From the IMG/VR virus record IMGVR_UViG_2974481312_000001, positions 1 to 41,868 of that record: a stretch of DNA of 41,868 nucleotides; one strand, 5' to 3'. The notes beneath the pieces were generated by a model. It worked only from the letters and a program-made list of their open reading frames with translations, did no database searches and was not told the origin of the DNA. Of this stretch, positions 37,492 to 37,926 are shown one piece after another (the first letter of the stretch is position 1; each line of letters begins with the position of its first letter). A program made the translations under genes and the position numbers. Source of the DNA: a virus (lineage: Duplodnaviria > Heunggongvirae > Uroviricota > Caudoviricetes).

Positions 37492-37926
37492 TTATCCTAG
37501 TCGATGTGTTATCACTCCCCCATCAGTATTAGGGTCGAAGCGCTTCGCTATCTCGACAGCAGCAGTAGCGGTGGCGCCCATAAACATCGCCGTAAGTGCA
37601 TACGGAGCACCGGAGCCAACGGCCGCTGCGTTACCCGCAATTGGTATAACTGAGCTCAACGGCGAGTCCCATGACTTGAAGAATTCTACCCTGAAAATAC
37701 GGTTATCCTCTTTAACAAACACCAGCGCTGAAAAGTCGAAGTCGTAGTACTTAGGCGCCAATATCTCGGCATCGACAACCAACAGCCTACCCACCCCGGC
37801 GTCCCCTGATACACCCATAACGAAGCGGTCGTTCTCGTAAATCTTGGTATCCGTATAGTATTTAAAATTACCCGTGACACACGTGTCGCATGCCATCGTT
37901 TCACCGTCAAAAGCTATAGTAGTCAT
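37492..37926 (-). CDS. HslV / proteasome beta-subunit-like Ntn-hydrolase
   Basis: N-terminal MTTIAFDGETMACDT (Thr right after Met, DG..A.DT block) and C-terminal GSGAPYALTA..AAVEIAKRF align with HslV TTIV..DG / GSGGPYA..IAEKA motifs. Confidence 0.55.
   Translation of the reverse strand: MTTIAFDGETMACDTCVTGNFKYYTDTKIYENDRFVMGVSGDAGVGRLLVVDAEILAPKYYDFDFSALVFVKEDNRIFRVEFFKSWDSPLSSVIPIAGNAAAVGSGAPYALTAMFMGATATAAVEIAKRFDPNTDGGVITHRLG

What the first reader, a model, noticed from the sequence alone, without database searches (positions are those of the whole stretch)
37492..37926. Phage-encoded HslV / proteasome-beta-like Ntn-hydrolase among the early genes
The 144-aa product starts MTTIAFDGETMACDT (Thr directly after the initiator Met, as in the Thr1 nucleophile of HslV and proteasome beta subunits) and carries a GSGAPYA..AVEIAKRF block matching HslV GSGGPYA..IAEKA. 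It is shorter than cellular HslV (about 176 aa), has no adjacent HslU-like ATPase, and sits between the lysis cassette and small early genes rather than near the capsid genes, so it is not a prohead protease. A phage self-compartmentalising peptidase of this type could degrade host or defence proteins or hijack host HslU; I do not recall this being a standard phage function.
Basis: partly seen in the sequence, partly recalled or inferred. Interest (0 to 1): 0.75.

Follow-up and report, generated by a model that had tools for sequence, protein, structure and literature searches.

The report
Known phage mini-proteasome homologue (PPH)
The gene is real and encodes a shortened relative of the proteasome and HslV proteases with an intact threonine active site, but this phage family (PPH, "peptidase HslV family") was already described in 2021, and only its biological role is still unknown.

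Summary
The window is a Jersey-like Salmonella siphovirus, 100% identical to phages f2SE/f3SE over the 3.5 kb around the gene. The ORF at 37492-37926 (minus strand, 144 aa, MTTIAFDG...) exists as described.

It is a proteasome-beta/HslV-type N-terminal-threonine hydrolase:
- A profile of 142 relatives matches proteasome beta5, BPH and HslV at E = 1e-11 to 1e-12.
- An AlphaFold2 model (pLDDT 95) matches only BPH, HslV and 20S beta structures.
- Thr1, Asp17, Lys33, Gly47, Gly-Ser-Gly, Asp166 and Ser/Thr169 equivalents are essentially invariant.

It is not HslV proper. It is no closer to HslV than to BPH or beta5, hits no NCBIfam HslV model, lacks helix H2 (part of the HslU-tail pocket), and has no ATPase partner in any phage examined.

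[quoted passage not shown] It also matches PHROG 1040 "peptidase HslV family", and some database records already carry that label.

I found no experimental work on the family. The HslU-hijack idea is weakened but not excluded.

The parts
37492..37926 (-). PPH-family proteasome-like Ntn hydrolase gene (144 codons plus TAA)
   Evidence: ORF. phrog_1040 E=4.2e-41. Family profile vs PDB: beta5 3.5e-12, BPH 1e-11, HslV 1.9e-11. AF2 pLDDT 95.3. Foldseek: BPH, HslV and 20S beta only.
37921..37923 (-). Thr2 codon (ACT): predicted N-terminal nucleophile after Met removal; equivalent to Thr1
   Evidence: Codon checked. T in 142/142 aligned relatives, a set chosen for an MT/VT start; unfiltered, 139/149 start MT. 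hhalign places M1-T2 on M1-T2 of E. coli HslV.
37885..37887 (-). Asp14 codon; equivalent to Asp17 of the catalytic triad
   Evidence: D in 141/142. The Thr-to-Asp spacing is 12 in all 142. Aligned to D17 of beta5 and HslV.
37843..37845 (-). Lys28 codon; equivalent to Lys33
   Evidence: K in 141/142. Aligned to K33 of beta5 and HslV.
37804..37806 (-). Gly41 codon; equivalent to the oxyanion-hole Gly47
   Evidence: G in 142/142. Aligned to G47 of beta5 and G48 of HslV.
37609..37617 (-). Gly104-Ser105-Gly106 codons; equivalent to Gly128-Ser129-Gly130
   Evidence: G 142/142; S 125 plus T 11 of 142; G 142/142. Aligned to GSG of beta5 and HslV.
37525..37536 (-). Asp131...Thr134 codons (FDPNT); equivalent to Asp166 and Ser169
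   Evidence: D in 137/142; T, S or C in 142/142. The Ser129-to-Asp166 spacing is 26 in all 142. Aligned to RDAYSGG of beta5.
37735..37800 (-). Residues 43-64: short helix H1 (45-50) followed by coil, where HslV and 20S beta have the H1-H2 helix pair
   Evidence: DSSP of the pLDDT-95 model shows H45-50 as the only helix before H107-115 and H120-130. hhalign leaves HslV residues ~62-77 without a counterpart. Fuchs et al. state that PPH lacks H2.
37421..37452 (-). Perfect 13-bp hairpin followed by a U7 run, 40 nt after the PPH stop: likely the 3' boundary of the PPH transcription unit and/or a holin translation control element
   Evidence: Terminator scan. Fold dG -25.8 kcal/mol, z = -4.0. Identical in AG11; Kagunavirus has a different hairpin at the same place.
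37932..38303 (-). Upstream 123-aa gene of unknown function (phrog_4947); its stop codon lies 5 nt before the PPH ATG, suggesting translational coupling
   Evidence: The same 5-nt spacing is seen in STP03 and SETP13.

Best explanation
[quoted passage not shown] PPH is a ~140-residue, helix-H2-less branch of the proteasome-beta/HslV/BPH group of N-terminal-nucleophile hydrolases.

Shown here:
- Homology, fold, and a complete proteasome-type active-site set.
- No possible propeptide.
- No ATPase partner encoded nearby in any phage examined.
- A fixed position as the last gene before the holin in Jerseyvirus and Kagunavirus.

Inferred:
- Host methionine aminopeptidase removes Met1, as it does for E. 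coli HslV (MTTIVSV...). This exposes Thr2 as an amino-terminal nucleophile that acts with Asp14, Lys28 and the Gly41 oxyanion hole.
- The protein is therefore a catalytically active threonine peptidase or amidase. It is made from the divergent, probably early, small-gene operon.
- It acts on its own, probably as a homo-oligomer, and not as a canonical HslU-activated HslV.

Its substrate and its role in infection are unknown and have not been tested by anyone I could find.
For: Sequence:
- phrog_1040 'peptidase HslV family' E=4.2e-41.
- Exhaustive HMMER finds 306 cluster representatives at E<=1e-10, nearly all 135-160 aa.
- The 142-sequence profile hits proteasome beta5 at 3.5e-12, BPH at 1e-11 and HslV at 1.9e-11; the beta5 and BPH matches run nearly end to end.
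- 71 of 142 relatives hit Pfam PF00227 on their own.
- hhalign to E. coli HslV, whose sequence I verified: probability 96.8%, E=2.2e-10, M1T2 on M1T2.

Structure:
- AF2 model pLDDT 95.3, pTM 0.89.
- Foldseek vs PDB gives 62 hits at E<1e-3; all 50 listed are BPH, HslV or 20S beta, with TM up to 0.76.
- 37 viral predicted structures share the fold.

Active site and PPH features:
- Active-site counts: T 142/142, D 141, K 141, G 142, GSG 142/136/142, D 137, T/S/C 142.
- 144 aa, one short helix where H1-H2 should be, and no propeptide, matching the published PPH description.

Context:
- No unfoldase in the AG11 genome.
- No unfoldase next to PPH in ten other phage contexts.
Against: - No biochemical data exist for any PPH. 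Related BPH and Anbu have intact sites but, to my knowledge (not checked here), no demonstrated peptidase activity.
- This protein on its own is below the Pfam Proteasome cut-off (12.7 vs 22.4 bits) and gives no NCBIfam hit.
- I could not compare it directly with the published PPH reference WP_042125023.1.
- Oligomeric state, Met removal and expression timing are inferred, not shown.
- Whether the hairpin after the gene acts as a terminator is untested.
Confidence: 0.85

Rival explanations
1. It is a functional HslV that docks onto the host HslU (ClpY) unfoldase, giving the phage an ATP-dependent protease with altered specificity.
For: It is homologous to HslV, with an HslV-like MTT start and no propeptide. 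Salmonella and E. coli hosts possess HslU (general knowledge). The phage encodes no ATPase of its own. HslV alone is a poor peptidase and needs HslU (PMC6429459).
Against: - It is no closer to HslV than to BPH or beta5, and no NCBIfam HslV model is hit.
- The HslU C-tail pocket of HslV is lined by F54 and F57 (H1), A79 and K80 (H2) and Q114.
- Here H1 is 6 residues long. H2 is absent, with HslV 62-77 unaligned and the remainder modelled as coil. F54 and F57 align to R47 and V50.
- H1/H2 form the regulator-facing surface in HslV and 20S beta (established structural knowledge).
Confidence: 0.08
2. It is an Ntn enzyme that is not a general protease. It could be a sequence-specific ligase or transpeptidase like connectase, or an amidohydrolase acting on a non-protein or cell-envelope substrate. 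The second option might be connected with the lysis genes it sits beside.
For: Proteasome homologues include the ligase connectase. Loss of H2 and the small size may not fit a closed proteolytic chamber; Fuchs et al. expect novel quaternary structures. Lysis genes lie near PPH in several lineages: Guernseyvirinae, metagenomic phage L003, and the Phapecoctavirus/Vibrio group.
Against: The full proteasome-type site, including Asp166 and Ser169 equivalents, is kept, which is typical of peptidases. There is no connectase-like S3/S4 insertion in the model. Lysis adjacency is absent in CcrRogue, SPAsTU, the Rhizobium and Brevundimonas phages and VspDsh_1. Here a terminator-like hairpin separates PPH from the holin.
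Confidence: 0.12
3. It is a catalytically irrelevant decoy that poisons or titrates host HslV/HslU and so protects phage proteins from degradation.
For: Phages are known to inhibit host proteases, for example T4 PinA against Lon (general knowledge). The protein is homologous to HslV.
Against: Every catalytic residue is essentially invariant across relatives only about 30-40% identical. That would not be expected of a decoy. The HslU-facing surface is not conserved.
Confidence: 0.03
4. It is the capsid (prohead) maturation protease or another virion-processing protease.
For: No prohead protease is annotated in the related AG11 genome.
Against: The gene lies in the non-structural small-gene operon, far from the head genes. 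AG11 has a separate scaffolding protein next to the major head protein. PPH also occurs in jumbo, phiCbK-like and rV5-like phages, again among non-structural genes. No prohead-protease Pfam family is hit.
Confidence: 0.02

Closest known systems
[quoted passage not shown]
   Same: About 140 residues. Proteasome-like core with Thr1, Asp17, Lys33 and Gly47. Lacks helix H2. No propeptide. No C-terminal S12/H5. Encoded by tailed phages and prophages of Proteobacteria. Uncharacterised experimentally.
   Different: Nothing found that differs. The Jersey/Kaguna subgroup has an especially short H1 and an invariant Cys next to the catalytic Asp.
PHROG phrog_1040 'peptidase HslV family', and the matching GenBank/RefSeq product names ('peptidase HslV family', 'HslV family peptidase', 'ATP-dependent protease subunit')
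   Same: Direct profile match at E=4.2e-41 over residues 1-143. Orthologues in AG11, SE2, Ent2 and ZCSE9 carry this name.
   Different: The name overstates the relationship. The protein is not an HslV orthologue, and 'ATP-dependent' is unsupported. In this phage's own records (f2SE, f3SE, fSE1C) it is still called 'hypothetical protein'.
HslV (ClpQ), the peptidase of the bacterial HslUV protease
   Same: Same fold. MTT start with the nucleophile exposed by Met removal, no propeptide. Asp17, Lys33, Gly-Ser-Gly and the GSGxPYA motif.
   Different: About 30 residues shorter. H2 missing and H1 short. The S1-S2 hairpin is 4 residues shorter (Thr-to-Asp spacing 12 vs 16). HslU-pocket residues are not kept. 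No hslU neighbour. The C-terminal FDxxTGG motif resembles 20S beta (RDxxSGG), not HslV (GDICIYTN).
BPH (beta-proteobacterial proteasome homologue; PDB 5ovs/5ovt/5ovu)
   Same: Best Foldseek hit (E=3.6e-6) and second-best profile hit family. A stand-alone group I homologue with no known ATPase partner.
   Different: BPH chains are about 183-201 aa with both H1 and H2 and a long acidic pore loop. BPH is bacterial, not viral.
20S proteasome beta5 subunit (Pfam PF00227)
   Same: Best profile hit, running nearly end to end with every active-site residue aligned. Highest TM-score, 0.76.
   Different: beta5 has a propeptide, H2, and a longer H3-H4 region. It functions only inside the alpha/beta 28-mer. 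This protein is below the PF00227 gathering score.

Membership tests
PPH (Fuchs et al. 2021) | Proteasome-like fold with the catalytic triad Thr1/Asp17/Lys33 and oxyanion-hole Gly47 | tested here: met
   T2, D14, K28 and G41 align to these residues and are 141-142/142 conserved.
PPH (Fuchs et al. 2021) | Only about 140 residues | tested here: met
   144 aa. Aligned relatives: median 146, range 135-174, after a 125-175 aa length filter. Unfiltered representatives are mostly 135-160 aa.
PPH (Fuchs et al. 2021) | Second helix (H2) absent while H1, H3 and H4 are present | tested here: met
   AF2 model at pLDDT 95: helices at 45-50, 107-115 and 120-130 only. hhalign leaves HslV 62-77 unaligned. This rests on a predicted structure.
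PPH (Fuchs et al. 2021) | No propeptide and no C-terminal S12/H5 extension | tested here: met
   The ATG is the first start after an in-frame stop. The model ends with strand 138-142.
PPH (Fuchs et al. 2021) | Encoded by tailed phages or prophages | tested here: met
   The window is a Jerseyvirus. Relatives occur in more than 560 phage records from many genera.
PPH (Fuchs et al. 2021) | Clusters with the PPH reference set (WP_042125023.1; CLANS map) and not with AAH, CPH, RPC or HslV | not testable with these tools
HslV (ClpQ) proper | Recognised by curated HslV models | tested here: not met
   No NCBIfam family at E<=10. The profile scores HslV, BPH and beta5 equally.
HslV (ClpQ) proper | HslU-tail docking pocket built from H1 (F54, F57), H2 (A79, K80) and Q114 | tested here: not met
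   Pocket residues from PMC6429459. H2 is absent, and F54 and F57 align to R47 and V50. This rests on a predicted monomer and a profile alignment.
HslV (ClpQ) proper | Operon or functional partnership with an HslU AAA+ ATPase | tested here: not met
   No unfoldase in the AG11 genome or in ten other PPH contexts. Use of host HslU is not testable here.
HslV (ClpQ) proper | N-terminal Thr directly after the initiator Met | tested here: met
Pfam Proteasome (PF00227) | Score above the gathering threshold (22.4 bits) | tested here: not met
   12.7 bits, E=0.099 for this protein. 71 of 142 relatives match at E<0.01, so superfamily membership is reached by transitivity and profile searches.
Ntn-hydrolase activity (functional class) | Free alpha-amino Thr nucleophile and measurable amide-bond hydrolysis | not testable with these tools
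   Needs N-terminal sequencing or mass spectrometry, and enzyme assays.
Phage prohead protease | Homology to the S78, U9/U35 or S77 families and a position beside the portal, scaffold and capsid genes | tested here: not met
   No such Pfam hit. The gene is in the non-structural operon.

The most novel reading that the evidence does not exclude
PPH could be a stand-alone phage effector protease that needs no unfoldase, or a connectase-like ligase. Made early, it would cleave or modify a specific host target, such as a defence or stress-response protein. Alternatively, given its fixed position in front of the holin in Guernseyvirinae, it could act on a component that sets lysis timing. That would make it the first functionally defined viral proteasome homologue.
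Probability: 0.2. Interest if true: 0.7.

Novelty: already known. Interest (0 to 1): 0.25.

Why it matters
As a discovery it adds little. The family, its phage distribution, its small size, the missing helix and the intact active site were all published in 2021, and annotation pipelines already name the gene.

What remains open is the biology. PPH is widespread: at least 306 clusters at 50% identity, and more than 560 phage genomes from Jersey-like siphoviruses to jumbo phages. Its catalytic residues are under absolute constraint. No substrate, oligomeric state or phenotype is known.

The Jersey-like Salmonella phages are easy to grow and engineer and are widely used for biocontrol. They would be a convenient system for the first functional study of a viral proteasome homologue.

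Tried and rejected
- **Single-sequence searches were uninformative.** Pfam Proteasome scored E=0.099. NCBIfam gave nothing. PDB phmmer gave only noise, with ribosomal uS2 above HslV. The 20-sequence close-relative profile was still marginal (HslV 0.0087, mixed with uS2).
- **The first AF2 model was too weak.** With 20 close sequences it reached pLDDT 70, with residues 42-63 disordered, and Foldseek E-values of only ~2e-3. The 142-sequence model replaced it.
- **A locus search failed.** The search for related loci with the broad alignment found no conserved 7-10 column stretch, so contexts came from the look-up of encoding contigs and annotated phage records.
- **PADLOC had no defence-system family** for PPH or its upstream neighbour.
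- **Literature searches found no experimental work.** I searched for experimental data on phage HslV/PPH, for anti-defence Ntn hydrolases, and for papers citing Fuchs et al..
- **An AP2-like DNA-binding domain in the upstream 123-aa protein** was my impression from the sequence; Pfam does not support it, so I dropped it.
- **A general PPH-lysis gene association** holds in three lineages and fails in at least five. I rejected it as a rule.
- **Possible fusion.** The 263-aa top BFVD hit (79% identity) suggested an upstream-gene/PPH fusion. The two ~79%-identity phages I could inspect have separate genes. Unresolved.

Full report
**Observation**

The 3.5 kb around the finding is 100% identical to Salmonella phages f2SE and f3SE and about 95% identical to Jerseyvirus AG11 (Guernseyvirinae). 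The ORF lies on the minus strand from ATG 37926-37924 to TAA 37494-37492. An in-frame stop sits 8 codons upstream of the ATG with no alternative start between them, so Thr2 must follow the initiator Met and no propeptide is possible. The exact sequence is already in GenBank as a 'hypothetical protein' of f18SE-type phages.

**Is it really proteasome/HslV-like?**

Single-sequence tests are weak:
- Pfam Proteasome scores 12.7 bits (E=0.099), below the 22.4-bit cut-off.
- NCBIfam gives no hit.
- PDB phmmer gives only noise.

PHROGs, however, gives phrog_1040 'peptidase HslV family' at E=4.2e-41.

I did not rely on that inherited name. I collected homologues and ran an exhaustive HMMER search with a profile of 20 close relatives. 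It found 4,347 cluster representatives at E<=1e-3 and 306 at E<=1e-10. The weak tail may include other proteasome-like families. The best 150 are almost all 135-160 aa. Of 149 representatives, 139 begin MT, 2 begin VT and 2 begin MS; the other 6 are fragments or lack the N-terminus.

A 142-sequence alignment, only 29-42% identical to the query outside its own subgroup, then gave significant matches:
- Against the PDB: proteasome beta5 at E=3.5e-12, BPH at 1e-11 and HslV at 1.9e-11, the beta5 and BPH matches running nearly end to end.
- 71 of the 142 members hit Pfam PF00227 individually.
- hhalign against E. coli HslV, a sequence I first verified against PDB 5ji3, gives 96.8% probability and E=2.2e-10, with Met1-Thr2 aligned to Met1-Thr2.

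**Structure**

AlphaFold2 with the shallow alignment gave pLDDT 70. Its Foldseek hits were already exclusively proteasome beta subunits at the top. With the deep alignment the model reached pLDDT 95.3 and pTM 0.89. Foldseek against the PDB then returned 62 matches at E<1e-3, and all 50 listed are BPH, HslV or 20S beta subunits. The best were BPH 5ovt at 3.6e-6 and T. maritima HslV at 6.7e-6, with TM-scores up to 0.76 for beta5. In the viral structure library, 37 predicted phage proteins share the fold. Some are already named 'Proteasome subunit beta', 'Ntn hydrolase domain' or 'ATP-dependent protease subunit'.

**Active site**

The profile alignments to beta5 and HslV give this mapping:

| This protein | Proteasome equivalent | Conservation in 142 relatives |
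|---|---|---|
| T2 | Thr1 | 142 (set was filtered for an MT/VT start) |
| D14 | Asp17 | 141 |
| K28 | Lys33 | 141 |
| G41 | Gly47 | 142 |
| G104-S105-G106 | Gly128-Ser129-Gly130 | 142 / 125 S + 11 T / 142 |
| D131 | Asp166 | 137 |
| T134 | Ser169 | 142 as T, S or C |

The Thr-to-Asp spacing (12) and the Ser-to-Asp spacing (26) are invariant across the family. The corresponding spacings are 16 (HslV and beta5) and 37 (beta5). Such constraint at about 30% overall identity argues for a working enzyme and against a decoy. Removal of Met1 before Thr by methionine aminopeptidase is expected from established specificity, and is how E. coli HslV matures. It is inferred here, not shown.

**Which family?**

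It is not HslV proper:
- It is equidistant from HslV, BPH and beta5.
- It hits no curated HslV model.
- It is about 30 residues shorter than HslV.
- Its C-terminal FDxxTGG motif resembles the 20S RDxxSGG motif more than the HslV sequence.
- The model has a single 6-residue helix (45-50) followed by coil where HslV and 20S beta have the H1-H2 pair.

[quoted passage not shown] Fuchs, Alva & Lupas 2021 (PMC8665760) describe it as about 140 residues, lacking H2, with no propeptide and no S12/H5. [quoted passage not shown] I could not compare directly with their reference sequence, so that last membership test remains open.

Searches for later experimental work on PPH or on phage 'HslV family' peptidases found none.

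**Context**

On the minus strand the order is: a divergent regulatory region next to an HTH gene (40078-40308, plus strand), then ASCH (39050-39334), DUF551 (38862-39053), three small genes of unknown function, a 123-aa gene (37932-38303) whose stop lies 5 nt before the PPH ATG, PPH, two holins and the endolysin.

The same placement, last gene before the holin, holds in Jerseyvirus AG11, STP03 and SETP13 and in Kagunavirus SZH-1.

A perfect 13-bp hairpin with a U7 tail lies 40 nt after the PPH stop (dG -25.8 kcal/mol, z = -4.0). PPH therefore probably closes the small-gene operon and is not part of the lysis cassette. That the operon is 'early' is inferred from its position; no expression data were found.

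The complete annotation of AG11 lists no AAA+ unfoldase and no prohead protease. It does list a separate scaffolding protein beside the major head protein.

**Wider distribution**

A distant family member finds 567 phage records by tblastn. They include Erwinia and Salmonella jumbo phages, Caulobacter phiCbK-like phages, and Vibrio, Rhizobium, Klebsiella, Aeromonas and phAPEC8-like phages.

I inspected the following contexts:
- a metagenomic podo-like contig, where PPH ends the helicase/DNA polymerase/MazG operon, convergent with an M15 endolysin;
- Klebsiella Jedunavirus, where it sits in a three-gene insert inside the tail module;
- CcrRogue;
- Vibrio phage 1.193.O;
- SPAsTU, beside a tRNA cluster;
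- Phapecoctavirus anhysbys;
- VspDsh_1;
- Rhizobium phage TM61;
- Brevundimonas phage Kabachok.

Across all of them there is no conserved neighbour and no adjacent unfoldase. Lysis genes are nearby in some lineages but not in others, so I do not claim an association.

**The HslU-hijack idea**

HslU activates HslV by inserting its C-terminal tails into pockets between HslV subunits. Those pockets are lined by residues 54 and 57 (H1), 79 and 80 (H2) and 114 (PMC6429459). In the hhalign alignment:
- HslV residues 62-77 have no counterpart.
- The rest of H2 falls on a segment modelled as coil.
- F54 and F57 align to R47 and V50.

H1 and H2 form the regulator-facing surface in HslV and 20S beta; Fuchs et al. 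note only that H3/H4 make the ring-ring contacts, so the H1/H2 assignment rests on my structural knowledge. Canonical HslU docking therefore looks unlikely. This is an inference from a predicted monomer and needs experiment.

**Verdict**

The gene is an ordinary member of an already described and already annotated phage family. Its novelty is nil as a discovery, while its function is an open and tractable question.

My best account is an active, stand-alone N-terminal-threonine hydrolase of the PPH family made from the small-gene operon. Confidence in its identity is about 0.85 or higher. Confidence that it acts as a peptidase independently of HslU is roughly 0.5-0.6.

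Noticed in passing
window 37412-37457 (minus strand), hairpin 37421-37452: The 13-bp hairpin plus U7 overlaps the first 12 codons of the 108-aa holin ORF, whose ATG at 37457 has no Shine-Dalgarno sequence. AG11 annotates the holin from the GTG at 37412, and that start's GGAG lies in the 3' arm of the hairpin. Kagunavirus SZH-1 has a different hairpin at the same place, again enclosing the Shine-Dalgarno sequence (GGAGGA) before a TTG start. It could be a terminator, a translational control that sequesters the Shine-Dalgarno sequence, or a dual-start holin/antiholin device.
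   Followed up: partly
window 36842-36861 vs L001 7065-7610 (AG11), L011, L012: AG11 and SETP13 carry a 546-bp gene annotated HNH endonuclease between the second holin and the endolysin. STP03 has a similar-sized (537-bp) gene at that position, labelled endolysin; its names look shifted by one gene. This window lacks the insert: its holin 2 and endolysin overlap by 20 nt. This looks like a homing-endonuclease presence/absence polymorphism inside the lysis cassette.
   Followed up: partly
L009 6000-6495 (AG11): The Rz-like spanin pair of AG11 is annotated inside the head-gene module, more than 30 kb from the holin/endolysin cassette, so the lysis genes are split. I did not check this in the window.
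   Followed up: no
window 37932-38303 (minus strand): The 123-aa protein of unknown function (phrog_4947) has a very basic N-terminal half (KKVTRPKEEDKRKRKPKPRVKP). Its stop codon lies 5 nt before the PPH start, and the same spacing is seen in STP03 and SETP13. It has no Pfam or PADLOC hit. Kagunavirus has a different gene at this position.
   Followed up: partly
L007 4001-4801; L013 2995-3687; BFVD hits of 240-279 aa: Some phage homologues are 230-279 aa with a C-terminal extension, possibly the 'RPC' group of Fuchs et al. Vibrio phage 1.193.O and E. coli phage anhysbys share the gene order glutaredoxin, lysozyme or M15 peptidase, PhoH, then PPH-like gene.
   Followed up: no
BFVD entry A0A1W6DWU9: The best viral structure match is 79% identical to this protein but 263 aa long, roughly the size of the upstream 123-aa gene plus PPH. 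It could be a real fusion, which would create an N-terminal propeptide, or an annotation or sequencing artefact. The two ~79%-identity phages I inspected have separate genes.
   Followed up: partly
Family members: Two of 149 representatives start MS instead of MT. That implies a Ser nucleophile, as in Bacillus CodW.
   Followed up: no
90%-identity cluster of the window protein: Near-identical copies of this Salmonella-phage protein are deposited under Novosphingobium silvae, Ralstonia pseudosolanacearum and Pelagovum pacificum. Many more are deposited under Salmonella enterica assemblies, on ~42-kb contigs. The non-Salmonella cases most likely reflect phage contamination or carry-over in assemblies, not true hosts.
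   Followed up: no
window 39050-39334 and L015 1249-1530: An ASCH-domain gene lies a few genes upstream of PPH, in the same operon, both here and in Rhizobium phage RHph_TM61. This may be coincidence.
   Followed up: no
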